Virus record (IMG/VR): IMGVR_UViG_2541047774_000002
Strand: one strand, 5' to 3'
Length of the DNA: 21,199 bases
Source: a virus
Taxonomy: Duplodnaviria > Heunggongvirae > Uroviricota > Caudoviricetes
Positions 1,255 through 20,875 of this stretch are shown here, one piece after another (position 1 is the stretch's first letter; every line of letters begins with the position of its first letter). The notes beneath the pieces were generated by a model. It did no database searches. It was not told where the DNA came from and worked only from the letters and a program-made list of their open reading frames with translations. A program made the position numbers and the translations under genes.

Positions 1255-1368
1255 ATAAAACCGGGTGATGCAAAAGTAGCCATTTGATTCACAAGGCCAT
1301 TGACGCATCGCCCGGTTAGTTTTAACCTTGTCCACCGTGATTCACGTTCGTGAACATGTCCTTTCAGG

Positions 1369-1444
1369 GCCGATATAGCTCAGTTGGTAGAGCAGCGCAT
1401 TCGTAATGCGAAGGTCGTAGGTTCGACTCCTATTATCGGCACCA
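1369..1444 (+). tRNA. thrW: tRNA-Thr, anticodon CGT
   Basis: 76-nt sequence GCCGATATAGCTCAGTTGGTAGAGC...GGTTCGACTCC...CCA; anticodon CGT at tRNA positions 34-36; D-loop and T-loop (GGTTCGA) consensus; encoded 3' CCA. Confidence 0.95.
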
Positions 1445-1461
1445 TTCAAACATCTCCCCAA

Positions 1462-1537
1462 GTCTACTAAAGTCTTTCAAAACCCCTTATAATCCACGTA
1501 TTAAAGCCCCGTTCGTCTTTTGACGTCTACTAAAGTC
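1462..1537. repeat. two 13-bp direct repeats GTCTACTAAAGTC (1462-1474, 1525-1537), each followed by yyTCAAAAyC; candidate integrase arm-type sites / attL
   Basis: Exact 13-bp repeat read twice, 63 bp apart, in the 165-bp gap between the tRNA 3' end and the integrase start. Confidence 0.4.
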
Positions 1538-1609
1538 CCTCAAAATCTACGGTCAGATGGGGGTACTTATGGGGGTATTTGCTGTTCGGTTTAGTGGAGG
1601 TACCCCCAA

Positions 1610-2824
1610 GTGAAACTCAATGCCCGTCAAATAGACACAGCCAAGCCAAAAGAGAAGGCTTACAAGCTGGCCGATGGTGGCGGTTTGTATCTCTTGGTAA
1701 AACCTAATGGAGGTAAATACTGGCGACTTAAATATCGTGTAGCTGGTAAAGAGAAGCTATTGGCACTAGGTGTGTATCCTGAGGTTACTCTAGCCGATGC
1801 TCGGGCAAAACGTGAAGATGCGAAAAGAGGTATCGCTGGTGGTATCGATCCGATGGAAGCGAAACGAGAGGAAAAGATTGCCCGGGAAACGCAGTTAAAC
1901 AACACCTTCAAAGATATTGCCCTTGAGTGGCACAGTAGCAAATTAAAAAAATGGTCTGCTGGTTATGCTTCAGACATCCTCGAAGCCTTCAACAAAGATG
2001 TGTTCCCTTACATTGGCAAAAAACCAATCGCCGAAATCAAACCACTTGAACTTCTGAATGTGCTGCGGCGCATCGAGGGGCGAGGTGCTACAGAAAAAGC
2101 CAAAAAAGTGAGGCAGCGGTGCGGGGAAGTTTTCCGCTATGCAATAGTCACTGGTCGCGCAGAGTATAACCCTGCACCAGACCTTACTAGCGCGATGCAA
2201 GGCCATGAATCTAATCATTACCCTTTCCTTACAGCCAAAGAATTACCTGATTTTTTCAAGGCATTGTCCAGTTACTCAGGAAGCGCATTGGTTGTTATGG
2301 CGGCTCGTCTACTGATTATCACCGGCTTGCGAACTGGCGAACTACGTGGCGCATTATGGGATGAAATTGATTTCAACAAGGCTATCTGGGAGATACCCGC
2401 TTCACGTATGAAAATGCGGCGGCCTCATATTGTGCCATTGTCTGAGCAGGCTCTTTCGCTTATTGGGAAGATTAGAGAAATAACAGGCAATTACCCTCTT
2501 ATGTTTCCCGGGCGCAATGATCCAAGGAAAACAATGAGTGAGGCCAGCATAAACCAAGTGTTTAAGCGCATTGGCTACGCTGGACGTGTAACTGGTCATG
2601 GGTTCCGGCACACTATGAGTACGATTTTGCATGAGCAGGGCTATAACACTGCGTGGATAGAAACACAGCTCGCTCACGTTGATAAGAACTCAATTCGTGG
2701 CACATACAACCATGCGCAATATCTGGATGGAAGGCGGGAGATGCTTCAATGGTATGCCGACTATATGGATTCTCTCGAGCATGGCGGAAATGTGGTGCAT
2801 ATGGTGTTTGAAAAACACGCATGA
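1610..2824 (+). CDS. tyrosine integrase, P4-type (N-terminal arm-binding domain plus catalytic core)
   Basis: GTG start with GGAGG about 10 nt upstream; 404 aa; N-terminus LADGGGLYLLVKPNGGKYWRLKYRVAGKEKLLALGVYPEV typical of P4-family integrases; C-terminal HGFRHT and RGTYNHAQY motifs (His-x-x-Arg, Tyr nucleophile); sits next to a tRNA 3' end. Confidence 0.9.
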   Translation: MKLNARQIDTAKPKEKAYKLADGGGLYLLVKPNGGKYWRLKYRVAGKEKLLALGVYPEVTLADARAKREDAKRGIAGGIDPMEAKREEKIARETQLNNTFKDIALEWHSSKLKKWSAGYASDILEAFNKDVFPYIGKKPIAEIKPLELLNVLRRIEGRGATEKAKKVRQRCGEVFRYAIVTGRAEYNPAPDLTSAMQGHESNHYPFLTAKELPDFFKALSSYSGSALVVMAARLLIITGLRTGELRGALWDEIDFNKAIWEIPASRMKMRRPHIVPLSEQALSLIGKIREITGNYPLMFPGRNDPRKTMSEASINQVFKRIGYAGRVTGHGFRHTMSTILHEQGYNTAWIETQLAHVDKNSIRGTYNHAQYLDGRREMLQWYADYMDSLEHGGNVVHMVFEKHA

Positions 2825-3132
2825 AACAACTGGACAAGTGTACAGAGGTTTACTAAAGTATAGGGGAGTAGATTGATAAAAACTCACAGAGGATTGCTAT
2901 TTACCAGTTAGCCTTGGAGAAGGGCAATCGCTCTTTTATAAACGAAGGTGTATTGAGCCTTCTACGCTGCTGAAAAGCGGAATGTTCTTTAACAGGCTTT
3001 GGCGCTGACAAAGCGCAATTGTTCTTTAAAACTACTGGATGTCACGCCTAATAGCGTGATCCTGCCGAAATGCAGGGTAGCTCTACCCTTGTGGAGCAAA
3101 CAAACCAAAACAATCTGACTATCTTTTATAAA

Positions 3133-3163
3133 AGACCGCAATATGTTTTTCATATTGTGGTCT
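3133..3163. promoter_or_regulatory. inverted repeat AGACCGCAATATG-ttttt-CATATTGTGGTCT (one mismatch) upstream of alpA; candidate operator or hairpin
   Basis: 13-bp arms with a 5-nt loop read in the 430-bp int-alpA intergenic region; function unknown. Confidence 0.3.
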
Positions 3164-3251
3164 TTGGCGTATTCGACATTTGACGCAAATAAAACTCTCG
3201 CCATTCGTTGCAGGAGGGGGTTATTGCGTCATTAGTACAGGATATTAATAA

Positions 3252-3455
3252 ATGGCTAATTACAATTCATTAATTCGTCTCTCTGAAGTTCAAAGGCGAA
3301 CTGGTTATAGCAAAGCATGGATTTATCGTCTTATTAGTCAGGGGAGGTTCCCTAAACAGGTAAAAATTGGAAGTCGGGCTATTGCTTTTGTTGAGTCTGA
3401 AATAGATGAATGGATTGAGAAGTGTATATTAGAATCTAGAGACGAGGTGGCCTGA
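3252..3455 (+). CDS. alpA: AlpA-family HTH transcriptional regulator (excisionase-like)
   Basis: 67 aa; LIRLSEVQRRTGYSKAWIYRLISQGRFPKQVKIGSRAIAFVESEIDEWI matches the AlpA/Vis pattern (HTH, then FP-x-P-V-K-I/L-G-x-R-x-x-x-W, then E-x-E-x-W); position after int is typical of P4/PICI-like elements. Confidence 0.8.
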   Translation: MANYNSLIRLSEVQRRTGYSKAWIYRLISQGRFPKQVKIGSRAIAFVESEIDEWIEKCILESRDEVA

Positions 3456-3886
3456 TGGAAAAGAAAAACCGCCCATTACAGGCGGCTAATTCAGATATTC
3501 GCGTATCTGATATTACGCCCCTTACAAAATCCCTTCAAGCACCAAAGCGCACACCGAAAAAGCATCGTGCCCGAGTCTATATGCTGCGTACTGGTATAGA
3601 GGGATGGACAGAAAACGACATTCTTCGCTACTGCCGTCTGTCTTCTGGTCGTAACTATGCAACAGAGTTAGAACGCCAGCTTGGAATCACTCTGGAGCGT
3701 ATCGACGAAAAGAATCCTGATGGTATCGGAACACACCTTCGCTACCGTTTCTCCTGCCGTGGTGATGTTCTGAAAGTGATCACTCATATTAACCATCTTG
3801 CGAACATAAATGATCACAACGGACTTTCTCAGCAGGAAATTGCCGACATTCTGAAACTCTACCCGGACGCGTTTAACGCCGCTTAA
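3455..3886 (+). CDS. hypothetical protein, 143 aa, basic N-terminus
   Basis: Start overlaps alpA stop (TGATG); ordinary amino-acid composition; no motif I can name. Confidence 0.6.
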   Translation: MEKKNRPLQAANSDIRVSDITPLTKSLQAPKRTPKKHRARVYMLRTGIEGWTENDILRYCRLSSGRNYATELERQLGITLERIDEKNPDGIGTHLRYRFSCRGDVLKVITHINHLANINDHNGLSQQEIADILKLYPDAFNAA

Positions 3887-3898
3887 CGGAGACTGAAA

Positions 3899-4732
3899 AT
3901 GAACATCGAAAAAAGCAGATTAATTTCTGAGGCCGCCCCTCATCTGAACGCCTCTCTGAGCACAATTAACGGTAATGAATTTGCCGCAATTGTCCCGGTT
4001 ATTCCTGGTCATATCGGTGGGCGTGAAACCAATATTGTTAGCGCAAAAGCGTTACACAAAGCGTTGGGCGTGGGAAAAGACTTCTCTACATGGATCACTG
4101 ATCGCATCTCTGAATATGACTTCACCATTGGGCACGATTACTCAGTCCATAAAACTATTTCCCCAAATTTGGGGAAAAGCCCGAATGGCGCGGCTTACAG
4201 CAAGATTAAGCAGTCTGGCAGACCCGGCAAAGACTATCTGTTAAGTGTCGGAATGGCGAAAGAACTGGCAATGATCGAACGCAATGATCAGGGTCGCGCT
4301 ATCCGCCGTTATTTCATCCAGTGCGAGGAAGAATTACAGCGTAGCGTTCCTGAAATCGCCGCCCGCTATCGTCGCCAGCTAAAAGCCCGTATCAGTGCCG
4401 CAAACAACTTTAAGCCAATGTGCGATGCGCTGAATATGGCCCGTGCCGAGCAGGGGAAAACGACGCAGCAACACCACTACACAAACGAGAGCAATATGAT
4501 TTCTCGTATCGTTCTTGGTGGGCTAACTGCTAAGCAGTGGGCGCGGATAAATGGCTATTCTGGCGAACCTCGCGACCATATGAACGCAGAACAACTTGAG
4601 CACCTCTCATATCTCGAAAGCACCAATATCACGTTAATTGATATGGGCATGGAATATGAGCAGCGCAAAGGAGAACTCACCCGCCTGTCGCAACGCTGGC
4701 TCGCTAAGCGTCTGGAGGTGGTCCATGTTTAA
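3899..4732 (+). CDS. phage antirepressor-like protein (Bro-N/KilAC-type, tentative)
   Basis: 277 aa; GGAGACTG RBS; central segment DYLLSVGMAKELAMIERNDQGRAIRRYFIQCEEEL resembles antirepressor/KilA-type DNA-binding proteins; family assignment is from memory. Confidence 0.55.
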   Translation: MNIEKSRLISEAAPHLNASLSTINGNEFAAIVPVIPGHIGGRETNIVSAKALHKALGVGKDFSTWITDRISEYDFTIGHDYSVHKTISPNLGKSPNGAAYSKIKQSGRPGKDYLLSVGMAKELAMIERNDQGRAIRRYFIQCEEELQRSVPEIAARYRRQLKARISAANNFKPMCDALNMARAEQGKTTQQHHYTNESNMISRIVLGGLTAKQWARINGYSGEPRDHMNAEQLEHLSYLESTNITLIDMGMEYEQRKGELTRLSQRWLAKRLEVVHV

Positions 4733-4907
4733 GCCGACAGGAACACCACAACCTCAAAAACGCTACAAGGATGCCCACGGAGCACTCGTTACTGTCGAAA
4801 GCGTGTCTCACAACCGAGTGACGTTTTATCGCGACGGGTATCAATCGCCATGCGTACAACCGCTGGCGCGCTTCATGAAGGAGTTCGCGGAGGTTAACAA
4901 ATGCTAA
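4725..4907 (+). CDS. small hypothetical protein (60 aa)
   Basis: ATG 6 nt after a strong GGAGGTGG SD, overlapping the stop of the preceding gene; the track ORF 4638-4907 probably starts here. Confidence 0.45.
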   Translation: MFKPTGTPQPQKRYKDAHGALVTVESVSHNRVTFYRDGYQSPCVQPLARFMKEFAEVNKC

Positions 4908-5338
4908 CCGTCCAGAAGAAGATATTTTCACTGGCTGGTATGTCGCCAAAATCCAGCAATATGACAGCAAAGTCTGGCATTAATACAGCAGATACAAGCA
5001 AAGTTTATCATTTTCTGGTGGTGGGAGCGGATGCCTTAACTATGTCAGAAATTACGGTCGATGGTGTTAGCGTTGAGAAGGTCGGCGGCTGCGCCAGAGA
5101 ATTTCTGGTCGTAGATGGCTTTCTCTGCTCGCGTAGTGACTCCACAAAAACCTTCGTCCACACGCGCGACGTTAACGAAATGAGCGCGATGTATTGTGCA
5201 TCTGGTGCTTCCAATAGTGAGTTTTCGGAGTCCATAAAAAAGAGCTTGCCGTTATGCGGCAACACGGTTTATGGTTATAAGGCACCTCATAAAACGGGTG
5301 CCGGGTTTCGCAGCCCGGAAATGTACGAGGCGACACAT

Positions 5339-5360
5339 GACGCGCCGAGCGTCTTTTTTT
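5339..5360 (+). terminator. possible rho-independent terminator (GACGC-gccga-GCGTC then TTTTTTT)
   Basis: 5-bp stem, 5-nt loop, 7 T; the stem is short so this is weak. Confidence 0.3.
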
Positions 5361-5562
5361 GTGCCGTTAGCCAGACTCACACTTTTTTCAGTGATGCGGT
5401 TATAATCCGCGTCGCTTGCAAAATTATGGTGGGCTGGACAGGGCAGCCGAAAGGCTGGCCGGTTTCCTTGTACGCCGGTACTGCGAACTCTGTTCAGTCC
5501 ACCACCAGCGAGTTTCGCAGCTCCGGTGGTGGGAAGAATTCCCAGTACAAGGAGGCTGCCAC

Positions 5563-5757
5563 ATGCTGGCTACTACCCCTACCCAAAAACCGCAATTTAT
5601 CTGGATTATCGCCGCAGTTCGCCGCGATTGCCCGACAATTACCGCCAAAATTCATCATATTGCTGCCGAGTCTGAACGCGATGCTCGCCGTTCTCTGGTG
5701 CGCGATCACGTCTGCTTTTTTGCTGGTCGTATCCGCATGGAGGTGGCACATGATTAA
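5563..5757 (+). CDS. small hypothetical protein (64 aa)
   Basis: ATG preceded by a near-consensus SD AAGGAGG at 5549-5555; first gene of a translationally coupled chain that runs to the primase; function unknown. Confidence 0.5.
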   Translation: MLATTPTQKPQFIWIIAAVRRDCPTITAKIHHIAAESERDARRSLVRDHVCFFAGRIRMEVAHD

Positions 5758-5968
5758 AACCTACGATGTGCATATGGATCCCCTCGAACGCACAAGCCAG
5801 ATCATCACACTGACAGAAGTGATTAATGACATTCTGGTGAGCAACTCTCCCTCACGAGACGAAAAACTGAAGGCGTTACTCGCGATATTGGATCTCGCCG
5901 TTCGTGACGTTCATTTCCTGCTGGAAGGTGGCGAAATGCCAGGAAAAACGGGGGCAACCAATGAATAA
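5750..5968 (+). CDS. hypothetical protein (72 aa)
   Basis: ATG overlaps the upstream stop (ATGATTAA); GGAGG upstream; this is the 3' segment of the 355-aa track ORF, whose upstream part I reject. Confidence 0.5.
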   Translation: MIKTYDVHMDPLERTSQIITLTEVINDILVSNSPSRDEKLKALLAILDLAVRDVHFLLEGGEMPGKTGATNE

Positions 5969-6155
5969 CTCAATTAATGCCCCTCGACTTACGTCCGCAC
6001 TTCAATTAATCGAGCAAGCAGCGGCTGTCCTGGTTGCTGTCAGTCTTTCGGCTGAAGAAATGGACGCTGCTGATGTCGTGGATGCGATTAAAGCGTGCTC
6101 ATCTTTGGTTAACGATGCTCGTGCAGAGCTGGTAATTCTTGGGGGTGAAAAATGA
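5961..6155 (+). CDS. hypothetical protein (64 aa)
   Basis: ATG overlapping the upstream stop (ATGAATAA); alternative start at 5904 in the track. Confidence 0.45.
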   Translation: MNNSINAPRLTSALQLIEQAAAVLVAVSLSAEEMDAADVVDAIKACSSLVNDARAELVILGGEK

Positions 6156-6415
6156 ATATCAACTTAATTTATCGTCATCCGTGTGAGCTGGAAATTGAAT
6201 CATTGCTGAGCCGTGAAGAGCCATATCCAGACACATTCACTCTTGCAGATCGCACGACTGAACGGCTTACCAGAGCGCGCACAGGTCTGGTTCATGTGAT
6301 GAATGAGATTCTTCCATCGGTGGGAGGGGAACAGGCGACAGTAATCACTAGCTGGCTACAAAAAGTTACCTCTCTGATAGATATCAGTTTAATCGATGCG
6401 GAGAGTGCGAAATGA
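6152..6415 (+). CDS. hypothetical protein (87 aa)
   Basis: ATGA start/stop overlap with the upstream gene; acidic protein. Confidence 0.55.
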   Translation: MNINLIYRHPCELEIESLLSREEPYPDTFTLADRTTERLTRARTGLVHVMNEILPSVGGEQATVITSWLQKVTSLIDISLIDAESAK

Positions 6416-6633
6416 CCAACATCCAGCTCATTGAAGCACAATGTCGCATCGAACAGGTTCAGACTGTTTTAGGGTTCTGGCTTGAAGGGGCCAGCCCCAG
6501 CAACAGAGACAAGTTAATGATTGGCGCGGTTATGTCACTGCTCAATGGCGTACCAGAAGCTATTCAGGAAGCAGACGAATTGTTGGGCAAATATGAGTTA
6601 CAGAATCATTCAGGCGAGGCGAAACATGAATAA
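6412..6633 (+). CDS. hypothetical protein (73 aa)
   Basis: ATGA overlap with the upstream gene. Confidence 0.55.
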   Translation: MTNIQLIEAQCRIEQVQTVLGFWLEGASPSNRDKLMIGAVMSLLNGVPEAIQEADELLGKYELQNHSGEAKHE

Positions 6634-7228
6634 TTTCTTAACTTTCCATGCAGAAGCAACGCCTGACGGCGTAAACATCATGTACCGCAGCAACGATGGA
6701 ATGACAGAACGCGTTGAGGCCGTCTCATATATTGATGCCGTAAATCGTCTGGATGCCGGGGATTATGACGATAAACCAGATGAAGGTATGTCAATACATC
6801 TCGCTATAGCCGATGGCGGCAACCAGGGATATTTCGATTACACATCACAGCATAACGTCATTATGTGGAGATGGCTGATCGCAACAGTATTCATGCTGGA
6901 AATGAGAGAGGAAAACGGCACTGTCAGCATCATTGATGATACTGGCAATCCTTCCGAAGTGGCTGTTTATTCCAACGGCATCGTCGCCATGCCGCTGTAT
7001 CCAGTAGCAGAGCGCCTCGCTATGGCAAACAACATTGAGGGCGCGATGATAGAACGTTTTGGCATCGAGTCTGGCACAGAACGCGCCATCATTTTCTACA
7101 GAGCCATGATGGATGTGGAACAAGGAGCACTGACTCCATTTGGTCGTGAAACGCTTGCTGAACTTCACAACAGCTTTATAGCTGAACTGAATGAAAACGG
7201 CATGCCAGCGGAACCAGTGACGCACTGA
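6626..7228 (+). CDS. hypothetical protein (200 aa)
   Basis: ATG at 6626 overlaps the upstream stop; the track's alternative start at 6521 is less likely because it would overlap the preceding gene by more than 100 nt. Confidence 0.55.
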   Translation: MNNFLTFHAEATPDGVNIMYRSNDGMTERVEAVSYIDAVNRLDAGDYDDKPDEGMSIHLAIADGGNQGYFDYTSQHNVIMWRWLIATVFMLEMREENGTVSIIDDTGNPSEVAVYSNGIVAMPLYPVAERLAMANNIEGAMIERFGIESGTERAIIFYRAMMDVEQGALTPFGRETLAELHNSFIAELNENGMPAEPVTH

Positions 7229-7238
7229 GGATGGAACC

Positions 7239-7580
7239 ATGATTACTAAAAATTTCCGACTGAATGCGCTGGCAAATAAGTATGCGTCGGCACTGTATAA
7301 CCACATTACCTCCACCAGCGGCGGGGACTATTTCATGGTTGATGCGGACGGCGAGGCCGTCCGTGTGGAAATCGTCAATGGAGTAAAAGGCGTTCGCAGC
7401 CTGATCGATAGCTACACACTAGCAACCATGAAAGTGTTCTACCCGCAGTGGGAAACCGTGGGGATCGAGCTTCTTGATCGTTGCGTCACTAAGGACGGAT
7501 TGACTGACGTTGGGCGCGAGATATGGCAAAGCATGGTTAATGACATGGGCGCAACTGTAGCGGGAGGTTCTCATGCGTGA
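7239..7580 (+). CDS. hypothetical protein (113 aa)
   Basis: ORF with GAGG about 8 nt upstream; same operon. Confidence 0.6.
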   Translation: MITKNFRLNALANKYASALYNHITSTSGGDYFMVDADGEAVRVEIVNGVKGVRSLIDSYTLATMKVFYPQWETVGIELLDRCVTKDGLTDVGREIWQSMVNDMGATVAGGSHA

Positions 7581-7944
7581 AAATGCAGAAATGGCGCTTA
7601 GCTCCGCAATCGGAGAGCAGGTGGCAAAGATTGCTGGTGCTGTGTGGATTCATAACCTTCATTCTACTGGTGAAGAGAAAATGGCAATTCAGACGCCAGA
7701 GGGACGCACCATTACTACATCTCTGAAGCCGTCAGATGTTTGTGATCTGATTTGCGCATTCATGTACCCAGCAATGAGGACTGCCCACGGCGATAAGTGG
7801 AAACTTGCGACAACCGCTGAATTTGATATGTGGCTAAACAATGATGGCATGCTGACTGATTACGGAATAACCAAGTGGCAGATGCTGGTTAGCCATATCG
7901 CAAACGCTATAGACCACGTGGGGTACGGTGATGCGAAACATTGA
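7573..7944 (+). CDS. hypothetical protein (123 aa)
   Basis: Overlaps both neighbours; same operon, immediately upstream of the primase. Confidence 0.6.
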   Translation: MRENAEMALSSAIGEQVAKIAGAVWIHNLHSTGEEKMAIQTPEGRTITTSLKPSDVCDLICAFMYPAMRTAHGDKWKLATTAEFDMWLNNDGMLTDYGITKWQMLVSHIANAIDHVGYGDAKH

Positions 7945-10687
7945 TCTTATCCGTCAGGTTATCAGTGCGTCTGAAAACAACTGGCCTCATGTGCTGGGCT
8001 GCCTGAACATAAATGTCCCTGACTCTCCGCGCCGTCATGCTCCCTGCCCTGCATGTGGGGGCAAAGATCGATTCCGGTTCGATGACAACGGGCGCGGTAG
8101 CTTCATCTGTAATCAGTGCGGCGCTGGTGATGGGCTGGATTTAATTAAACGCGTAAATAACTGCGACACAACAGAGGCGGCGCTTCTTGCCGCTGATGTT
8201 CTGGGTATTGATTACCGGACAACGGAAACACCAGAAGCCACCAGCCAGAAACGGGAACAACTGGAAACCGAGCGCCAGCGACGCGAACAGGAGCGCCTGA
8301 AAAGGGCAGAGAAGGATGAACAACAAAGACGGGATACGTTTTCCCGTCAGTTTGATGACATGCGCAGAAAGGCTGTAAACGGCAAATCTGATTATCTGGT
8401 TGCGAAAGGGGTAGGTGATTTTACATTCCCCGTGTTGCCCGATGGATCTCTGTTGCTGGCGCTGGTGGATAAATCCGGCGCAGTCACAGCAGCACAGACA
8501 ATTACCTCACATGGTGAAAAAAGACTCCTGACAGGTTCAGCAAAGCGGGGGGCATATCACGCCATAAACGCACCAGAAACAACACAGAGCATCTTAATCG
8601 CAGAAGGGCTGGCAACGGCATTATCTGCCCATTTAATTCGTCCAGAGGCGCTGACAGTGGCGGCGATTGATGCCGGGAACCTGTTATATGTCGCCCAGGT
8701 ACTGCGGGATAAATTTCCTTCAGCACAAATTATCATTGCTGCGGATAACGACCACAGCGAAGGAAGACAAAACACGGGGAGAATAGCAGCAGAAAAAGCA
8801 GCTTTATCTGTTTCTGGATGGGTGGCATTACCCCCGACAGATCACAAAGCAGACTGGAATGATTACCACCAAAAACACGGCATTAAATGCGCCACAGAAG
8901 CGTTCAATAAGTCAATGTACCAACCACAGGGTAATGGCGTGAAACAGGAGCCACAGACCATTGAGGGAAGCGATTTTAAGGTTATGGATACCGACCCACT
9001 GAAACCAAGAATAGAAAGCCGCGAGGATGGTATTTATTGGGTATCTCCGAGAGCTGACAGTCAGAGTGGAGAAATCATCAATAACGAAAGCTGGTTATGT
9101 TCTCCGTTAAGCGTTATCGGTACTGGCAGAGACGATAAAGACCAGTATCTCATTCTTCGCTGGCTGTCGTTTGGTTCTGAAACGCCGACAACCGCTGCCA
9201 TTCCACTGGCTGATATTGGTGAACGTGAAGGATGGCGCACACTTAAAGCTGGTGGGGTAAATGTCACGACCAAAAGCAGCCTCAGAGCAATACTGGCAGA
9301 CTGGCTACAACGCAGTGGCTCTCGTGAATTGTGGCGTGTTGCTCATGCCACTGGCTGGCAATGCGGAGCGTACATCATGCCTGATGGGGAAATCATCGGA
9401 ACACCTGAAAATCCTGTGCTGTTCAGCGGGAGAAGCTCAGCCGCAGCCGGATATACCGTCTCAGGGAGCGCGAAAAGCTGGCGTGATAACGTGGCGCGTC
9501 TGGCCTTTGGTAACTATTCAATGATGACCGGGATCGGCGCAGCACTGGCAGCGCCATTGATTGGGCTGGTGGGCGCTGACGGGTTCGGCATTCATTTCTA
9601 TGAGCAGTCGAGCGCAGGTAAGACCACCACGGCAAACGTGGCGAGCAGCTTATACGGCAACCCTGATTTACTGCGGCTGACGTGGTACGGAACCGCGCTG
9701 GGGCTGGCAAATGAAGCTGCCGCCCACAATGACGGACTAATGCCGCTTGATGAAGTTGGTCAGGGCGCTGATCCTGTCAGTGTTTCACAGTCTGCCTATG
9801 CGTTATTTAACGGTGTAGGGAAACTGCAAGGCGCTAAAGATGGTGGAAACCGGGATCTAAAACGCTGGCGTACAGTGGCAATCAGCACCGGAGAAATGGA
9901 TTTAGAAACATTTATCGCTACTTCCGGGCGAAAAACCAAAGCCGGGCAACTGGTGCGACTGCTGAATATTCCGTTGAGTAAAGCAGTACGCTTTCACGAT
10001 TACCAGAACGGAAAACAGCACGCAGACGCACTGAAAGACGCTTACCAGCATCACCACGGCGCAGCCGGGCGTGAGTGGATTAAATGGCTGACAGACCACC
10101 AGCAACAGGCAATTAAAACTGTTCGTGACTGCGAAAGCAGATGGAGAAGTCTGATCCCATCCGATTATGGTGAGCAGGTTCACCGTGTAGCCGCGCGATT
10201 TGCCATTCTGGAGGCCGCATTGCTGTTAGGCGAGGTTGTAACAGGCTGGGATGCTCAGACATGCCGTGATGCGATACAGCACAGCTATAACGCATGGTTG
10301 CGCGAGTTCGGCACAGGTAACAAAGAGCATCAGCAGATTATTGAACAAACGGAGGCATTTCTTAATGCCTATGGGCTTAGCCGTTTTGCACCATTTCCAT
10401 ACAGCCCGGCAGATTTGCCCATCAAAGATTTAGCCGGATACCGTCAGCGTGGAGAACATGACGAAAGCCCAATGATTTTCTACACATTCCCGGCCACATT
10501 TGAAAAGGAGATCGCATGTGGTTTCAACGCAAAACAGTTTGCTGAAGTGTTGAAAAAAGCCGGGATGCTAACCCCACCAAACAGCGGTCGTGGATACCAA
10601 AGAAAATCACCACGTATTCAGGGACGACAAATAAACGTTTATGTACTCAATTACCAGCCAGGAGATTATAACTCATCTGAAGAATGA
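7928..10687 (+). CDS. replicative primase-helicase (zinc-ribbon + Toprim + P-loop NTPase), P4-alpha/PICI-Pri-like
   Basis: 919 aa; N-terminal Cys4 motif CPACGG...CNQCG; Toprim-like acidic motif IIIAADNDHSEG; Walker A EQSSAGKTT and Walker-B-like GLMPLDEVGQ in the C-terminal half; followed directly by iterons. Confidence 0.9.
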   Translation: MMRNIDLIRQVISASENNWPHVLGCLNINVPDSPRRHAPCPACGGKDRFRFDDNGRGSFICNQCGAGDGLDLIKRVNNCDTTEAALLAADVLGIDYRTTETPEATSQKREQLETERQRREQERLKRAEKDEQQRRDTFSRQFDDMRRKAVNGKSDYLVAKGVGDFTFPVLPDGSLLLALVDKSGAVTAAQTITSHGEKRLLTGSAKRGAYHAINAPETTQSILIAEGLATALSAHLIRPEALTVAAIDAGNLLYVAQVLRDKFPSAQIIIAADNDHSEGRQNTGRIAAEKAALSVSGWVALPPTDHKADWNDYHQKHGIKCATEAFNKSMYQPQGNGVKQEPQTIEGSDFKVMDTDPLKPRIESREDGIYWVSPRADSQSGEIINNESWLCSPLSVIGTGRDDKDQYLILRWLSFGSETPTTAAIPLADIGEREGWRTLKAGGVNVTTKSSLRAILADWLQRSGSRELWRVAHATGWQCGAYIMPDGEIIGTPENPVLFSGRSSAAAGYTVSGSAKSWRDNVARLAFGNYSMMTGIGAALAAPLIGLVGADGFGIHFYEQSSAGKTTTANVASSLYGNPDLLRLTWYGTALGLANEAAAHNDGLMPLDEVGQGADPVSVSQSAYALFNGVGKLQGAKDGGNRDLKRWRTVAISTGEMDLETFIATSGRKTKAGQLVRLLNIPLSKAVRFHDYQNGKQHADALKDAYQHHHGAAGREWIKWLTDHQQQAIKTVRDCESRWRSLIPSDYGEQVHRVAARFAILEAALLLGEVVTGWDAQTCRDAIQHSYNAWLREFGTGNKEHQQIIEQTEAFLNAYGLSRFAPFPYSPADLPIKDLAGYRQRGEHDESPMIFYTFPATFEKEIACGFNAKQFAEVLKKAGMLTPPNSGRGYQRKSPRIQGRQINVYVLNYQPGDYNSSEE

Positions 10688-10712
10688 GCTTCTTCATGTG
10701 CGTAGAAAAGGT

Positions 10713-10823
10713 GTTGGTTCAGTTGGTTCAGTTGGTTCAATTTGTAAATAGTATTGTTTTATAAGGATTTTATTCTTTTTATTGAACCAACACTGAACCA
10801 ACAACACGGTATTTTGAACCAAC
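10713..10823. repeat. iteron cluster / putative replication origin: 3 tandem GTTGGTTCA (10713-10739), AT-rich spacer, 3 inverted TGAACCAAC (10783-10791, 10794-10802, 10815-10823)
   Basis: Repeats counted directly; iterons flanking an AT-rich core directly downstream of a primase-helicase gene is standard satellite/plasmid origin architecture. Confidence 0.6.
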
Positions 10824-10873
10824 ACAATGTGACTGAATTGATGCGCACAACACCTGGCTGGCATCAGAGAGTG

Positions 10874-10950
10874 TTTTACGAGACTTTCGTAAAATCCTGT
10901 GTACAAGGGCGTGACGTTTTTGAAAGTGGGCACTACGAAATTTTCGTAGT
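10874..10950. promoter_or_regulatory. two related palindromes: TTTTACGA-n5-TCGTAAAA (10874-10894) and perfect 19-bp ACTACGAAA-T-TTTCGTAGT (10932-10950); candidate operator pair
   Basis: Shared TACGA(A/G)A...TTTCGTA half-sites about 40 bp apart; neither is followed by a T-run, so they are more likely protein-binding sites than terminators. Confidence 0.35.
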
Positions 10951-11143
10951 TCAAAAAACAGCCTCTGAGAAGTTGTTATGCCTGTTCAGCAAACCATCCA
11001 CATAGCTGATCGCGAATCAAATTACCAATGGAGCCAGAAGCAAGGGCAGAACTGAAAAGCGCCTGCCGTGAAGAGTAATGCGACACCATAAATATAGTTT
11101 TTAGAGTCCATAAAAAACCTGTCAAAACCTGACACACAGAACG

Positions 11144-11177
11144 ATGCCACCAGCTACTGAGCGGTGGCATTTTTTTG
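11144..11177 (+). terminator. rho-independent terminator (ATGCCACC-loop-GGTGGCAT then TTTTTT)
   Basis: Perfect 8-bp stem, 11-nt loop, 6-7 T on the + strand; separates the replication module from the downstream operon. Confidence 0.6.
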
Positions 11178-11271
11178 TGCTATTTGTTTCATATTTTGCA
11201 ATTACGATGATGAATATTGCGATTTGTGAAACTATAATAACTGTTGTTTTATACAGTTCTAAGGGGGCGTT

Positions 11272-11433
11272 ATGGCTATTTCAGTAAAGCCGGTATTGAT
11301 AAGTGAGAAGCAAATGGAAGCGATAAAGAAAATTCAGGAAGAGCAGCGTAAAAAATCAGGAATTGGAGTAGCGCCAACTCTGCATGAAATTGCACGAGGG
11401 TTAATAGATAAGGCGCTGGCAGGCTGTATGTGA
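11272..11433 (+). CDS. small protein (53 aa), possible small DNA-binding regulator
   Basis: Not in the ORF track (under 60 aa). ATG 5 nt after AAGGGGG; translation read by hand: MAISVKPVLISEKQMEAIKKIQEEQRKKSGIGVAPTLHEIARGLIDKALAGCM; stop 16 nt before the next gene; sits right after an AT-rich promoter-like region. Confidence 0.4.
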   Translation: MAISVKPVLISEKQMEAIKKIQEEQRKKSGIGVAPTLHEIARGLIDKALAGCM

Positions 11434-11449
11434 AAATGGATGGCATCGC

Positions 11450-11911
11450 ATGGAACTAAAATTTATTGATAACCCTGTGCGATTACAGGCCTTTCTTAAC
11501 GAGCCAGGCAATACCGAAAATATTGTTGAGCCGGGGCACACGTACTACATCAAGCCTGATGCGGTATATCTCGGCATCTACGAAGGATTAGTGCTGGCTG
11601 GCGTTCATGAAGTGCGTAACTTCTGGCATAGCGTTGTTGAATGCCATGCGGTGTACGACCCCGGATTCCGTGGTGAATATGCACTGCAAGGGCATCGATT
11701 ATTCTGCAAATGGCTTCTCGAAAACTCACCATTCCTTAACAGCATCACTATGGTTCCTGACACCACGAAATATGGACGGGCAATTATCCGTTTGCTTGGC
11801 GCTACCCGTGTTGGTCACCTTGATGATGCTTATATCAGATGTGGTAAACCCGTCGGCGTAACGCTTTATCAGTTAACTCGGCAACAATATAAGGAATTCA
11901 GCGAATGTTAA
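11450..11911 (+). CDS. hypothetical protein (153 aa); possible accessory protein of an ejection-protein module (P22 gp14-like position)
   Basis: Normal globular composition; stop overlaps the start of the 699-aa gene (ATGTTAA); the positional assignment is inference only. Confidence 0.7.
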   Translation: MELKFIDNPVRLQAFLNEPGNTENIVEPGHTYYIKPDAVYLGIYEGLVLAGVHEVRNFWHSVVECHAVYDPGFRGEYALQGHRLFCKWLLENSPFLNSITMVPDTTKYGRAIIRLLGATRVGHLDDAYIRCGKPVGVTLYQLTRQQYKEFSEC

Positions 11912-14004
11912 TTACCCATATAGCTCATAAACATCTCAATCGTGCCGTATACGAAAAAGGCGGTGATGGTGGTGCCTCTAAAGCTCAGGCGAAGGCCCAG
12001 CAGCAGGCAATTGATTTGCAGCGCGAGCAGTGGAATACGGTGATGAATAATCTCAAGCCGTATGCAGAAGTCGGATTGCCTGCTTTACAACAACTGCAAG
12101 GACTGATGACTCTGGAAGGGCAGAATAAAGCCGCGAATGATTTCTTTGGTTCTGGTTTATATAAAACACAGGCAGATCAGGCCCGTTATCAGAACCTTGT
12201 CTCAGCAGAAGCTACCGGGGGGCTTGGCTCAACAGCTACCAGTAACCAGTTATCTTCCATTGCGCCCATGCTTTATAACAATTGGCTCAGTGGGCAAATG
12301 CAAAATTATGGAAACCTGCTAAATGTCGGGATGAATGCGGCATCAGGGCAGGCAACAGCAGGGCAAAACTACGCCAATAATACCGGGCAACTCTTGCAGG
12401 GGCTTGGCGCTATTCGTGCAGGTCAGGCGCAGCAGCCATCCAGTCTTGCGCGTGGTATTGGTGGGGCGGCATCAGGCGCTTTAGCGGGTGCGCAACTTGG
12501 TTCCGTTGTTCCGGGTATAGGTAATGTCGCCGGGGCTATTGGTGGTGGGCTTATTGGTCTTGTTGGGGGGGCTTGGATTCTAATGGCGACATGGCAACTT
12601 GGCGGGCTGCCTAGCATGGCACCGCAAAATGATAATGCTCCTCGTTCTTCCGTTCCTCAGCCTGTGCAGTATCAGCAGCACCCAAACGTAGGTTTAATGG
12701 CGCTACAGGGGCTAAGAGGCGTTGCTGAGATTAATCAGCAGGCACGTCAACAACAGCGTAAAGCAGAGTTTCAGAAAGCATATGCCGGGGCTTTTGAGTC
12801 TGGAGACAGAAACAAAATGCGCAGTCTTATTTCTGAGTATCCAGAAGAATTTGAAAGCGTTCAGAAAGGGATGGGCTTTATTGATGACGACCAGAGAAAT
12901 TCTATTGGTCATCTTGCGACTAGTGCTCAAATCGCATCTTCGCTCGGAACTGGGGCATTTGGAAAATTCATAGCAGATAACGAAGATGAAATGCGTCGCT
13001 TGGGAATTTCTCCTGAGTCTGTTGCCGAAATGCATGTTAATGATCCACAGGGATTCCAGCGGCTTGCTGGTAGTATGGCACTGTTTTCTCTCGGTCATGA
13101 GAAGTATTTCGATATCAAAGATCAAATGGAAGGTCGGGATATTGAGCGTGGCAAGTTGGCAGAGACAATCCGCAGCAATCAGGCTGGCGAAGCACTTCAG
13201 GCGAGAGGGCAGGATATTAGCCGAGCAAATGCGTTAACGTCAGCATATGCACCAACAGCAGCAATGCAGAATTACAATCAGTACGCTCAAATGTTAAAGG
13301 CGGATCCAGAGGGGGCGGCGGCATTTGCGGCAGCGGCTGGAATTAATACAAACGCCAAAAAATTAATGAGTGTTAGAGAAAACGATGATGGCACTGTCAC
13401 AAAATACTACACAGACGGAAGTGAAGAGCAGGGAAAACTAAACCAGCCAATATCTGGAGATGGGTTTCGTCCAATAGCTTTGCCAACAGCCCAAAAGATC
13501 ATGGAAAAGTCGCCAGAAGGGGCTAAAAAAGCTGCTGGATTTGCATACAGGGTTAGGGATGCTCTTGATTCAATAGATACACTGAAAGACCAGCTTAGCC
13601 CACAGCGAGTGGCGATCATTAATAATGCTTTGGGTAATGGGACGCTGGCTAACTTAACGCTCAGCCCAACAGAGCAGCAATACGTTGTTAATGCTAATGA
13701 CGCAATAATGGCAATACTCCGTCAGGAAACAGGGGCAGCTATCGCACCTGCTGAAATGTCAAAATATTATCAAATGTATTTCCCTCAGCCTGGCGACTCC
13801 ACAAAAACCATTGATACCAAGCGCCGGAAGATGGAAAACCAGTTCAATTCGCTGAAAGCTGCTTCTGGTCGAGCTTATGATGCTTTGCGGGTTATTTCAG
13901 CAGTTGACAGAGGAACTTCTTCTTCGTCGCAGACATTGCCGCAATCTGAGCAGGTATCACAGCCAGCAGCCAGCAGTAACTTTTCTTCACTATGGGGTGA
14001 TTAA
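11905..14004 (+). CDS. large low-complexity protein (699 aa); candidate phage ejection / internal-virion (DNA-transfer) protein
   Basis: N-terminal EKGGDGG followed by a Q/A-rich coiled-coil-like stretch; Q/N/G/A-rich low-complexity region; glycine-zipper hydrophobic segment GSVVPGIGNVAGAIGGGLIGLVGGAWILMATW; essentially no Cys; translationally coupled on both sides. Confidence 0.75.
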   Translation: MLITHIAHKHLNRAVYEKGGDGGASKAQAKAQQQAIDLQREQWNTVMNNLKPYAEVGLPALQQLQGLMTLEGQNKAANDFFGSGLYKTQADQARYQNLVSAEATGGLGSTATSNQLSSIAPMLYNNWLSGQMQNYGNLLNVGMNAASGQATAGQNYANNTGQLLQGLGAIRAGQAQQPSSLARGIGGAASGALAGAQLGSVVPGIGNVAGAIGGGLIGLVGGAWILMATWQLGGLPSMAPQNDNAPRSSVPQPVQYQQHPNVGLMALQGLRGVAEINQQARQQQRKAEFQKAYAGAFESGDRNKMRSLISEYPEEFESVQKGMGFIDDDQRNSIGHLATSAQIASSLGTGAFGKFIADNEDEMRRLGISPESVAEMHVNDPQGFQRLAGSMALFSLGHEKYFDIKDQMEGRDIERGKLAETIRSNQAGEALQARGQDISRANALTSAYAPTAAMQNYNQYAQMLKADPEGAAAFAAAAGINTNAKKLMSVRENDDGTVTKYYTDGSEEQGKLNQPISGDGFRPIALPTAQKIMEKSPEGAKKAAGFAYRVRDALDSIDTLKDQLSPQRVAIINNALGNGTLANLTLSPTEQQYVVNANDAIMAILRQETGAAIAPAEMSKYYQMYFPQPGDSTKTIDTKRRKMENQFNSLKAASGRAYDALRVISAVDRGTSSSSQTLPQSEQVSQPAASSNFSSLWGD

Positions 14005-16109: not shown

Positions 16110-16113
16110 CTGG

Positions 16114-20754: not shown

Positions 20755-20875
20755 GTTGGTTCACGGCCTCTTTTTGTTGGTTCAAAAATGGGGTGTGTTG
20801 GTTCACTTTTTGCGAATAATTCTTTTAAAAACAATACTCTTTACAAATTGAACCAACTGAACCAACTGAACCAAC
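20755..20875. repeat. second iteron cluster, inverted relative to 10713-10823: 3 spaced GTTGGTTCA (20755-20763, 20776-20784, 20797-20805), AT-rich spacer, 3 tandem TGAACCAAC (20849-20875)
   Basis: Repeats counted directly; 20841-20885 is nearly the exact reverse complement of 10701-10745. Confidence 0.6.

What the first reader, a model, noticed from the sequence alone, without database searches (positions are those of the whole stretch)
5563..10687. Chain of eight small, translationally coupled genes of unknown function feeding into the primase-helicase
From 5563 to 7944 eight ORFs (64-200 aa) are arranged head-to-tail, several with overlapping start/stop codons (ATGA, ATGAATAA), and run directly into the 919-aa primase-helicase. 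None carries a motif I can name. In satellites and PICIs, the genes between the regulatory switch and the replication gene commonly include helper-interference, derepression and anti-defense functions, and are poorly characterised in most lineages.
Basis: partly seen in the sequence, partly recalled or inferred. Interest (0 to 1): 0.45.

Follow-up and report, generated by a model that had tools for sequence, protein, structure and literature searches.

The report
RNA-gated early operon of a phage satellite
The eight small genes are real and form the early operon of a known E. coli phage-parasitic island (an EcCIMP1-type PICI); a P4/P1-type antisense-RNA switch sits just upstream, the first gene is an Icd/Kil-like division inhibitor, and the other seven are fast-evolving acidic accessory proteins of unknown function.

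Summary
Observation confirmed. Eight head-to-tail ORFs (5563-7944) with 4- or 8-nt start/stop overlaps run into a Zn-ribbon/Toprim/DUF927 primase-helicase. All show pN well below pS, and they recur in related islands of many Enterobacterales genera.

The locus is not new. Window 1-12743 is 99% identical to EcCIMP1, a PICI at tRNA-Thr that the P22-like phage Kapi1 mobilises (PMC11773190).

Two C4 segments pair with the ORF1 leader, one across its Shine-Dalgarno. There are 11 specificity types across loci, all with compensatory changes. ORF1 is Icd-like and 43% identical to the P4 kil region. A 355-codon eta-like frame (4901-5968) reads through both RNAs and ends as ORF2.

ORF2-8 match no characterised family, PDB fold or defence model. 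They are acidic, mosaic and dispensable for the primase. ORF7 and ORF8 are paralogs. Their domain also occurs fused to an ORF6N/Bro domain and to ORF6. ORF8-type genes co-occur with P22-like ejection genes.

The best reading is helper- or host-interaction accessory genes under P4-type RNA immunity. This is a new member of a known kind, of modest interest.

The parts
3252..3455 (+). alpA (AlpA-family regulator); first gene of the translationally coupled series
   Evidence: Pfam Phage_AlpA 7.4e-20. In EcCIMP1 alpA is required for excision and transfer (PMC11773190).
3455..3886 (+). 143-aa conserved hypothetical protein (U2)
   Evidence: No Pfam hit. Present in most related loci.
3899..4732 (+). 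AntA/AntB antirepressor-family protein
   Evidence: Pfam AntA 1.1e-21.
4725..4907 (+). DUF4222 protein; its stop overlaps the ATG of the eta-like frame
   Evidence: Pfam DUF4222 6.1e-25; sequence read.
4901..5968 (+). eta-like read-through frame (355 codons). It spans isrK, C4, the leader and ORF1 (out of frame), and shares its frame and stop with ORF2.
   Evidence: Pfam Phage_ASH 1.4e-28 maps to nt 5270-5596. An equivalent open frame is conserved in all 24 loci. P4 eta logic is described in PMC10111431.
5246..5275 (+). conserved promoter-like element (TTGCCG, 18 nt, TATGGT) 7 nt upstream of the isrK 5' end
   Evidence: Alignment of 19 loci. Function is inferred; the element is below the threshold of the scan tool.
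5282..5359 (+). isrK-family RNA (P4 seqA equivalent) with a1/b1 target sites and an intrinsic terminator (5339-5353 plus T run)
   Evidence: Rfam RF01394, 69 bits; terminator; a1/b1 complementarity to C4 covaries across loci.
5422..5509 (+). C4 antisense RNA (P4 CI / P1 c4 equivalent); b' loop 5465-5473, a' segment 5481-5487
   Evidence: Rfam RF01695, 81.1 bits. The same two families hit P4 at CI and seqA.
5514..5560 (+). ORF1 leader carrying the C4 target sites: a2 5514-5520 and b2 5545-5553, which overlaps the SD (AAGGAGG)
   Evidence: 11 specificity types, cognate pairing 8-10 nt, non-cognate mean 3.9 nt.
5563..5757 (+). ORF1, Icd-like / P4 Kil-like protein (64 aa, pI 9.5). Its first ~130 nt are the most C-rich, G-poor stretch of the chain (rut-like).
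   Evidence: NCBIfam NF033153 3.7e-20; 43% identity to the P4 kil region; GC skew -0.36.
5750..5968 (+). ORF2, 72 aa, acidic; also the C-terminal part of the eta-like frame
   Evidence: Orthologues at 28-57% identity, pN below pS. Not called by PGAP.
5961..6155 (+). ORF3, 64 aa, acidic; rare family
   Evidence: No family hit above threshold.
6152..6415 (+). ORF4, 87 aa, acidic. The family is found in 20 loci, with tandem and double-length forms.
   Evidence: The PDB profile search found nothing.
6412..6633 (+). ORF5, 73 aa, acidic (phrog_20558, unknown function)
6626..7228 (+). ORF6, 200 aa, strongly acidic (net charge -21), phrog_1515. Homologues occur in early operons of temperate phages.
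7239..7580 (+). ORF7, 113 aa (phrog_37628); confident model of a four-helix plus beta-hairpin fold with no known relative
7573..7944 (+). ORF8, 123 aa, diverged paralog of ORF7; overlaps the primase start by 14 nt; co-occurs with P22-like ejection genes
   Evidence: hhalign 95.6%, E 1.2e-8; co-occurrence.
7931..10687 (+). primase-helicase (Zn ribbon, Toprim, DUF927 with Walker A)
   Evidence: Pfam; phrog_1139 2.4e-178; the N-terminal half is 33% identical to P4 alpha.
10713..10823 (.). origin-like iteron cluster (GTTGGTTCA, 3 direct and 3 inverted copies) in AT-rich DNA
   Evidence: 12 copies in the window against 0.18 expected.
11153..11178 (+). first strong + strand intrinsic-terminator-like site after the isrK terminator; probable operon end
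20755..20875 (.). second cluster of the same iteron (3 direct and 3 inverted copies), 10 kb away

Best explanation
The eight ORFs are the distal part of one long, translationally coupled early operon of an EcCIMP1-type PICI integrated at tRNA-Thr. The order is alpA, U2, antA, DUF4222, eta-like frame, ORF1-8, primase, then the origin.

Expression is gated by a P4/P1-type RNA immunity module.
1. A conserved promoter-like element just upstream of isrK would give a transcript that mostly stops at the isrK terminator.
2. That transcript is processed to the stable C4 RNA.
3. C4 pairs through two single-stranded segments with a1/b1 in isrK and with a2/b2 in the ORF1 leader. The b2 site covers the ORF1 Shine-Dalgarno.
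4. With ORF1 untranslated, its C-rich, G-poor 5' part is exposed and Rho would terminate. ORF2-8 and the primase therefore stay off.
5. When the helper phage activates alpA, transcripts from upstream are translated through the RNA region in the eta-like frame. This overrides the block and delivers ORF2/ORF3-8 and the primase.

Proposed gene roles:
- ORF1 is an Icd/Kil-like division inhibitor and also the leader ORF whose translation licenses downstream transcription.
- ORF2-8 are fast-evolving, acidic, mosaic accessory proteins that most likely bind helper or host proteins (antirepressor-network, takeover or interference factors). They are probably not replication factors.
- ORF7 and ORF8 are paralogs of a small domain that also occurs fused to ORF6N/Bro modules.
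- ORF8-type copies go with P22-like helper gene sets.

What is shown here: gene reality, the RNA families, the covarying complementarity, the eta-like frame, the mosaicism, the paralogy and the co-occurrence.

What is inferred: promoter use, Rho termination, the override by translation, and the biochemical role of ORF2-8.
For: Identity of the island:
- 99% identity to EcCIMP1 over window 1-12743.
- EcCIMP1 is helper-induced, alpA-dependent and transduced by Kapi1 (PMC11773190).

RNA switch:
- Rfam C4 at 81 bits and isrK at 69 bits. The same two families hit P4 at CI and seqA.
- C4 loop 5465-5473 is complementary to 5545-5553, over the SD. C4 5481-5487 is complementary to 5514-5520 and to 5307-5313 in isrK.
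- Across 24 loci there are 11 loop/tail types. Cognate pairing is 8-10 nt; non-cognate pairing averages 3.9 nt.
- A promoter-like element is conserved.
- The strongest C>G tract lies at 5560-5694.
- Between 5353 and 11153 the only + strand terminator-like site is a weak one at 9575.

eta-like frame:
- An open frame of 188-385 codons crosses both RNAs in all loci. It ends at the Icd stop or at the stop of gene 2.
- Its ATG overlaps the DUF4222 stop.
- The P4 eta/kil/CI logic is summarised in PMC10111431.

ORF1: NCBIfam Icd-like and 43% identity to the P4 kil region.

Accessory nature of ORF2-8:
- pN is below pS, but amino-acid identity is only 40-65% where the primase is about 80%.
- Distribution across loci is patchy.
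- Three loci have only Icd plus one small ORF ahead of a 74-75% identical primase.
- pI values are 4.2-5.6 and ORF6 has net charge -21.
- ORF6 and ORF7 homologues lie in early operons of temperate phages, not beside this type of primase.
- Natural fusions exist: ORF6+ORF7 (P0253) and ORF6N+ORF7-like (P0281).
- ORF7 and ORF8 are paralogs.
- ORF8 co-occurs with DUF2824/gp7/gp20/gp16-like genes in 7 of 8 lineages, against 0 of 54 ORF8-less loci.

Precedent: in ECOR61, Tn5 insertions in an Icd-like gene and the two small overlapping ORFs next to it suppress cell death triggered by a phage gene. All six linked genes, including a primase, were needed to rebuild the effect (bioRxiv 10.1101/2023.04.06.535777).
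Against: - No expression data exist for this locus. Promoter use, C4 processing, Rho dependence and the eta-type override are transferred from P4/P1 work, not measured here.
- ORF8 overlaps the primase start, and ORF6/ORF7 sit next to the primase in most loci. That is what a replication cofactor would also look like.
- The ORF8-ejection module association is not corrected for shared ancestry.
- Identity of the ECOR61 locus with this one was not checked.
Confidence: 0.6

Rival explanations
1. ORF6, ORF7 and ORF8 are replication accessory proteins of the primase-helicase, such as a copy-number regulator like P4 Cnr, a loader or an origin-recognition helper. On this view they feed into the primase because they work with it.
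For: - They sit immediately upstream of the primase, and ORF8 overlaps the primase start by 14 nt.
- P4 has cnr (ORF106) in the same position.
- ORF6 and an ORF7/8-type gene precede the primase in most of the 24 C4-bearing loci.
- ORF8-like is the only gene between U2 and the primase in L083 and L088.
Against: - There is no similarity to Cnr/DUF5375: hhalign probability 0.3-2% and no Pfam hit among 109 family members.
- L013, L016 and L038 lack ORF6-8 but keep a primase about 74% identical.
- ORF6 and ORF7 homologues lie in phage early operons far from, or without, this primase.
- The ORF7-like domain is fused to an ORF6N/Bro-type domain in P0281.
- ORF8 presence follows the ejection-gene module, not primase similarity, which ranges 53-83% in ORF8 islands.
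Confidence: 0.2
2. The Icd-like gene, the small ORFs and the primase together form an abortive-infection or superinfection-exclusion module. A protein of an incoming phage perturbs the RNA switch or a chain protein, Icd/Kil and its partners are expressed, and the cell stops dividing or dies.
For: - In ECOR61, suppressor insertions hit an Icd-like gene and the two overlapping small ORFs next to it. Six linked genes, including a primase, were needed to reconstitute the effect.
- A P4-like prophage behaves similarly with Abc1 as trigger.
- EcCIMP1 adds superinfection immunity against Kapi1, and the responsible gene is unknown.
Against: - PADLOC finds no defence model in ORF1-8.
- The ECOR61 sequence was not compared with this window.
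- Toxicity could be a by-product of derepressing a satellite early operon rather than a selected defence function.
- Transposon effects on the small ORFs could be polar.
Confidence: 0.15
3. Some of the eight ORFs, especially ORF2 and ORF3, are not genes but chance open frames or by-products of the eta-like frame.
For: - PGAP does not call ORF2.
- ORF2 lies wholly inside the 355-codon frame.
- ORF3 was found in only a few loci.
Against: - ORF2 and ORF3 have their own SD-like motifs and overlap-coupled starts.
- pN is below pS against orthologues of 28-57% identity in several genera.
- ORF2-like genes follow Icd with the same 8-nt overlap in independent islands.
Confidence: 0.05

Closest known systems
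EcCIMP1, a PICI of E. coli MP1 (Pick, Stadel and Raivio 2025, PMC11773190)
   Same: It is the same island backbone. Window 1-12743 is 99.0% identical, at the same tRNA-Thr/proA site, with the same int, alpA, antA, eight-ORF chain, primase and DUF2824. EcCIMP1 is experimentally helper-induced and alpA-dependent.
   Different: The late zone differs between 12743 and 19093. It carries a fused gp7+gp20-like gene, a 701-aa gene and an IS66 insertion. The paper does not discuss the small ORFs, Icd, isrK/C4 or the eta-like frame.
Left (early) operon and RNA immunity of satellite phage P4: vis, PLE, seqA, CI, kil/eta, epsilon, orf151, cnr, alpha
   Same: The order is the same: an AlpA-like gene, an isrK/seqA-type RNA, a C4/CI-type RNA, a Kil/Icd-like first ORF, small genes and then the primase. 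A long frame reads through the RNAs, as eta does. The iterons lie in two clusters, like ori and crr.
   Different: - ORF2-8 have no similarity to epsilon, orf151 or cnr.
- The helicase part is DUF927, and only the N-terminal half resembles alpha.
- No sid/delta/psu genes are present.
- The helper is P22-like, not P2.
- Here the eta-like frame is out of frame with Kil/Icd and in frame with ORF2.
immI region of phages P1 and P7: a1/b1, c4, a2/b2, icd, ant
   Same: A C4 RNA has two recognition segments, with targets both upstream and downstream. The downstream target covers the SD of an Icd-like ORF that is translationally coupled to what follows. The comparison with P1 rests on established knowledge (Citron and Schuster 1990; Biere et al. 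1992).
   Different: The downstream cargo is seven small ORFs and a primase, not the ant1/2 antirepressor. The AntA-family gene lies upstream of the switch.
isrK-orf45-anrP locus of Salmonella Gifsy-1 (PMC4825925)
   Same: An isrK RNA with its own promoter and a leaky intrinsic terminator, a processed downstream RNA (STnc1160), and an ATGA-coupled downstream ORF.
   Different: In Gifsy-1, IsrK acts in trans as an activator of antirepressor translation. Here the conserved, covarying pairing points to C4-type repression at the Icd SD.
ECOR61 Icd-like / small-ORF / primase cell-death locus (Silas et al., bioRxiv 10.1101/2023.04.06.535777)
   Same: An Icd-like gene annotated with an N-terminal extension is followed by overlapping ORFs of about 62-64 codons and linked to a DNA primase. 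The small ORFs are genetically implicated.
   Different: Sequence identity with this window was not tested. The gene lengths are not the same. A defence role is not shown for EcCIMP1-type islands.

Membership tests
Gram-negative PICI (phage-inducible chromosomal island) | Tyrosine integrase at one end, next to the attachment site | tested here: met
   Integrase 1610-2824 (Pfam), next to tRNA-Thr 1369-1444. The att core TCCTATTATC is at 1428-1437.
Gram-negative PICI (phage-inducible chromosomal island) | alpA regulator downstream of int and co-oriented with the operon | tested here: met
   Phage_AlpA 7.4e-20 at 3252-3455.
Gram-negative PICI (phage-inducible chromosomal island) | Own primase/replicase with an adjacent origin | tested here: met
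   Zn ribbon, Toprim and DUF927; iterons at 10713-10823.
Gram-negative PICI (phage-inducible chromosomal island) | Helper-dependent excision, replication and packaging | not testable with these tools
   Shown experimentally for EcCIMP1, which is 99% identical over 1-12743 (PMC11773190). Not shown for this variant, whose late zone carries an IS66.
Gram-negative PICI (phage-inducible chromosomal island) | Both att repeats and a size of roughly 10-20 kb | tested here: inconclusive
   Only attL is inside the window. The right end lies beyond 21199.
P4-like satellite (SatelliteFinder core: int, alpA, alpha, epsilon, sid, delta, psu) | sid, delta and psu capsid-size and late-control genes | tested here: not met
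   Pfam found none in the large downstream ORFs, and the RefSeq annotation of the EcCIMP1 right arm has none. The small ORFs at 19-21 kb were not all scanned.
P4-like satellite (SatelliteFinder core: int, alpA, alpha, epsilon, sid, delta, psu) | epsilon (helper derepressor) and cnr between the immunity region and alpha | tested here: not met
   No BLASTP or hhalign similarity of ORF2-8 to epsilon, orf151 or cnr.
P4-like satellite (SatelliteFinder core: int, alpA, alpha, epsilon, sid, delta, psu) | CI/seqA RNA immunity with kil/eta | tested here: met
   C4 and isrK, which also hit P4 CI and seqA. ORF1 is 43% identical to the kil region. The eta-like frame is present.
P1/P7 immI (c4-icd-ant) | C4 RNA with two segments complementary to sites flanking it, the downstream site covering the icd SD | tested here: met
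   covariation across 11 types.
P1/P7 immI (c4-icd-ant) | Antirepressor gene (ant) translationally coupled downstream of icd | tested here: not met
   The downstream genes are ORF2-8 and the primase. The AntA-family gene is upstream at 3899-4732.
Icd-like cell-division inhibitor (NCBIfam NF033153) | Score above the curated cut-off | tested here: met
   ORF1 scores 71.7 bits against a cut-off of 25. Division inhibition itself was not tested.
P4 Cnr / DUF5375 (PF17345) | Sequence or profile similarity of the gene upstream of the primase | tested here: not met
   hhalign probability 0.3% (ORF7/8) and 2% (ORF6). No Pfam hit in 109 family members.
Known anti-phage defence systems (PADLOC-DB 2.0) | Any ORF1-8 product matching a defence-system model | tested here: not met
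   Only chance-level hits with E at or above 0.009.
Bro / antirepressor domain network | Domain shared with proteins that carry Bro-N, ORF6N or KilA-N modules | tested here: inconclusive
   The ORF7-like domain is fused C-terminally to ORF6N in P0281 (E 1.7e-7; Pfam ORF6N 1.1e-13). It lies next to an ORF6N gene in phage phi467. That is one clear fusion lineage, and no function has been tested.

The most novel reading that the evidence does not exclude
The ORF7/ORF8 domain family has only about 65 clusters among 1.84 billion representatives and no PDB or BFVD fold relative. It could be a new class of helper-specificity effectors of satellites: small stand-alone antirepressor-network modules that recognise a protein of one helper type. 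ORF8-type copies would be dedicated to P22-like helpers, since they travel with captured P22 ejection genes across different island backbones. This island carries both ORF7 and ORF8 types. Alternatively or in addition, the Icd-plus-small-ORF chain could be the effector arm of a satellite-borne abortive-infection response like the ECOR61 locus.
Probability: 0.25. Interest if true: 0.6.

Novelty: new member of a known kind. Interest (0 to 1): 0.35.

Why it matters
- PICIs of this type occur in about 17% of complete E. coli genomes (931 of 5426 have a match), and how they talk to their helpers is largely unknown.
- P4-type RNA immunity with at least 11 exchangeable specificities gates the early operon of P22-dependent PICIs. 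That gives a concrete, testable control circuit for EcCIMP1, where only alpA had been studied.
- It also gives a short list of candidate genes for the two unexplained EcCIMP1 phenotypes, helper recognition and superinfection immunity. The candidates are ORF1, ORF2, ORF6/7 and especially ORF8.
- It flags an annotation problem. The 'ash family protein' and 'Icd-like with N-terminal extension' calls overlie two RNA genes.

Tried and rejected
1. ORF2-5 as a tandem array of paralogous helical hairpins. Pairwise BLASTP was weak. Family-against-family hhalign gave at best 40% (ORF5 vs F8) and under 5% among ORF2-5. Not supported.
3. P4 Cnr, epsilon and orf151 similarity. None. The precomputed PF17345 flags on a few ORF6 homologues were not reproduced.
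5. PDB sequence-profile searches for the ORF4, ORF5, ORF6 and ORF7/8 families. Nothing.
6. PADLOC. Nothing.
7. tblastn of ORF1 against the phage collection. No match at 1e-3, as the query is short. Homology rests on NCBIfam and the direct P4 comparison.
8. Checking whether the ECOR61 locus is the same island. The contig QOYT01000045.1 is not in any collection I could read.
9. Sigma-70 scan. No + strand promoter inside the chain. The conserved isrK promoter-like element scores 8 of 12, below the tool's threshold.

Full report
**1. Observation**

The window holds proA (1-1254), tRNA-Thr(CGT) (1369-1444) and a P4-type integrase (1610-2824). A long run of + strand genes follows.

The junctions are ATGATTAA, ATGAATAA, ATGA, ATGA, ATGAATAA, a 10-nt spacer, ATGCGTGA, and a 14-nt overlap with the primase ATG at 7931. 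Each start has a purine-rich SD-like motif.

The primase carries Zn_Ribbon_Prim, Toprim_3 and DUF927 domains.

Against orthologues from other genera, non-synonymous differences are far below synonymous ones for all eight ORFs. RefSeq annotates seven of the eight in E. coli MP1; ORF2 is not called.

**2. What the element is**

Megablast finds the 5200-10700 stretch in 931 of 5426 complete E. coli genomes, and 355 of them hold at least 80% of it.

Window 1-12743 is 99.0% identical to the E. coli MP1 chromosome at proA/tRNA-Thr. That region is EcCIMP1, a 19,963-bp PICI. EcCIMP1 excises only when the P22-like helper Kapi1 is induced. It needs its alpA and int genes, is transduced by Kapi1, and adds superinfection immunity against Kapi1 (PMC11773190). 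The paper leaves the small ORFs as hypothetical and does not mention Icd, C4 or isrK.

The window's late zone differs from EcCIMP1 between 12743 and 19093. It holds a fused P22 gp7+gp20-like gene, a 701-aa gene and an IS66.

**3.

Rfam finds isrK at 5282-5359 (69 bits) and C4 antisense RNA at 5422-5509 (81 bits), 54 nt upstream of ORF1. The same two models hit phage P4 exactly at seqA and CI. Their presence in Gram-negative PICIs was noted before (PMC10111431).

In the window:
- The loop of C4 hairpin 2 (5465-5473, UCCUUGUAC) is perfectly complementary to 5545-5553, which overlaps the ORF1 SD (AAGGAGG).
- A second single-stranded C4 segment (5481-5487) is complementary to 5514-5520 and to the loop of the second isrK hairpin (5307-5313).

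I used the primase to fetch 77 related loci from Enterobacterales. In the 24 with a detectable C4, I found 11 different loop/tail combinations. In every one the leader sites carry the matching complement, 8-10 nt for cognate pairs. Non-cognate pairs average 3.9 nt. The isrK sites covary in the same way. This is direct comparative evidence for the a1/b1, a'/b', a2/b2 architecture known from P1/P7 immI and P4.

Three further features fit that model:
- A promoter-like element (A-tract, TTGCCG, 18 nt, TATGGT) is conserved 7 nt upstream of the isrK 5' end.
- isrK ends in an intrinsic terminator.
- The first 130 nt of ORF1 are the most C-rich, G-poor part of the chain, with GC skew -0.36. This is what a Rho loading site exposed by a translation block would look like.

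Between 5353 and 11153 there is no convincing + strand intrinsic terminator. The chain and the primase are therefore one transcription unit. It ends after an iteron-rich, AT-rich origin-like region at 10713-10823.

**4. ORF1 and the eta-like frame**

[quoted passage not shown] It is 43% identical to the 65 C-terminal residues of the old P4 'cI protein' ORF, which is the kil position.

Pfam Phage_ASH matches a different frame, at nt 5270-5596. That stretch is precisely the two RNA genes plus the leader. It belongs to a 355-codon open frame, 4901-5968, whose ATG overlaps the stop of the upstream DUF4222 gene.

In all 24 loci one frame of 188-385 codons stays open from upstream of isrK through C4. 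In 17 loci it is in frame with Icd, which is the P4 eta/kil nested arrangement. In the window and six other loci (L001, L002, L006, L015, L031, L043) it crosses Icd out of frame and ends at the stop of the second chain gene, ORF2 here.

In P4, eta is translated only from the upstream, late-activated promoter, and its translation prevents CI-dependent termination (summarised in PMC10111431). By analogy there are two routes into the chain:
- An RNA-repressible route from the isrK promoter through ORF1.
- An alpA-driven, immunity-insensitive route through the eta-like frame.

This step is inference.

**5. ORF2-8**

No characterised family matches any of them. Pfam, NCBIfam and PADLOC give nothing. 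PHROGs gives only families of unknown function.

All seven are acidic, with pI 4.2-5.6. ORF6 has net charge -21.

Their distribution is mosaic. After Icd come one to eight small overlapping ORFs drawn from at least 15 families. L013, L016 and L038 have only Icd plus one 69-73-aa ORF ahead of a primase about 74% identical.

The small proteins are 40-65% identical where the primase is about 80% identical.

*ORF7 and ORF8.* They are diverged paralogs: hhalign of separate profiles gives 95.6%, E 1.2e-8. The family is tiny, with 65 clusters among 1.84 billion representatives. It includes two informative fusions. P0253 is ORF6-like plus ORF7-like. P0281 is an ORF6N (Bro/KilA-N-type) domain plus ORF7-like. 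In phage phi467 an ORF6N gene directly precedes the ORF7 homologue, with an ORF6 homologue just upstream and no primase nearby.

**6. A lead on specificity**

ORF8-type genes are rare, with 21 clusters at 90% identity.

- Among the primase-anchored loci, only the window, L001, L002 and L031 have ORF8. Only these four have the DUF2824/gp7/gp20 module.
- Of six further ORF8-bearing islands, five carry P22_gp7 plus Inj_translocase, usually with DUF2824 and a gp16-like SLT protein. These islands come from Kluyvera, Serratia, Citrobacter and two metagenome assemblies, and they sit at several different integration sites.
- Counting lineages gives 7 of 8 ORF8 lineages with the module, against 0 of 54 ORF8-less loci. 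Fisher's exact test gives 1.6e-8, not corrected for phylogeny.
- Primase identity in these islands ranges from 53% to 83%. ORF8 therefore follows the captured P22-like genes rather than the primase lineage.
- In L083 and L088 the isrK-C4-Icd-ORF2-ORF4-like chain sits downstream of primase and SSB and runs into the ejection genes. ORF8-like alone precedes the primase. The RNA-gated chain is thus a portable module, not an appendage of the primase.

**7. Comparison with the known**

The closest known thing is EcCIMP1 itself. Functionally the region is the counterpart of the P4 left operon and of P1 immI, but ORF2-8 are unrelated to epsilon, orf151 or cnr.

There is a functional precedent in ECOR61. 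Cell death triggered by a phage accessory gene was suppressed by insertions in an Icd-like gene and the two small overlapping ORFs beside it. All six linked genes, including a primase, were needed to rebuild the effect (bioRxiv 10.1101/2023.04.06.535777). I could not test whether that locus is orthologous to this one.

**8. Verdict**

- The interpretation misses the Icd-like identity of ORF1, the RNA switch and the eta-like frame.
- The element is already described.
- What is added here: covariation evidence for 11 immunity specificities, two eta-frame variants, the ORF7/8 paralogy and fusions, and the ORF8-ejection module association.
- Interest is modest. The most novel reading still open is that ORF7/8 are helper-specificity effectors, or that the chain is a satellite-borne abortive-infection arm.

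Noticed in passing
window 10713-10823 and 20755-20875: The 9-mer GTTGGTTCA occurs 12 times (0.18 expected by chance), in two clusters 10 kb apart. Each cluster has three direct and three inverted copies. The first lies directly after the primase in AT-rich DNA. This resembles the bipartite ori/crr origin of P4.
   Followed up: partly
window 5270-5596 (frame of 4901-5968): Pfam Phage_ASH (PF10554) and the PGAP 'ash family protein' pseudogene map exactly onto the isrK and C4 RNA genes and the ORF1 leader. [quoted passage not shown] Transposon or deletion phenotypes assigned to such CDSs may really be RNA phenotypes.
   Followed up: partly
window 4901-5968; loci L006, L015, L031, L043 compared with 17 others: The eta-like read-through frame comes in two versions. 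In one it is in frame with Icd, as in P4 eta/kil. In the other it is shifted, crosses Icd in another frame and ends as the second chain gene. The shift arises in the short spacer between C4 and the Icd ATG.
   Followed up: partly
L083 15063-17015 and L088 15390-17015: In these Kluyvera-type islands the isrK-C4-Icd-small-ORF chain lies downstream of primase and SSB and runs into hyp53-DUF2824-gp7-gp20-gp16-like genes. The RNA-gated chain can therefore gate late or ejection genes instead of the primase.
   Followed up: partly
window 11450-16109: The island carries P22-like virion ejection genes: DUF2824 (gp14-like), a 699-aa fusion of gp7-like and gp20-like (Inj_translocase) domains, and a 701-aa protein with no Pfam hit. 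In EcCIMP1 gp7-like and gp20-like are separate genes, followed by a 906-aa SLT/gp16-like protein. It is unusual for a satellite to supply ejection proteins.
   Followed up: partly
window 16541-18957: There is an IS66-family element (three ORFs: HTH_Tnp_1, a 116-aa ORF at 16963-17313 that was not scanned, and DDE_Tnp_IS66) in the late zone, inside the stretch (12743-19093) where this island differs from EcCIMP1. It may have inactivated late functions.
   Followed up: no
window 1428-1437: The EcCIMP1 att core TCCTATTATC occurs once, in the 3' part of tRNA-Thr (attL). The right-hand copy is not in the window, so the island extends beyond 21199.
   Followed up: yes
loci L020, L025, L027 (two adjacent copies); L006, L054 (167-171 aa): The ORF4 family occurs as tandem pairs and as double-length proteins whose C-terminal half matches the second gene of the pairs. 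The family has undergone fusion or fission.
   Followed up: no
L007 leader vs L008 C4 loop: One non-cognate pair shows a 10-nt complementarity: the L008 C4 loop against a site just upstream of the L007 b2 site. It could be a remnant of an immunity-type switch or chance.
   Followed up: no
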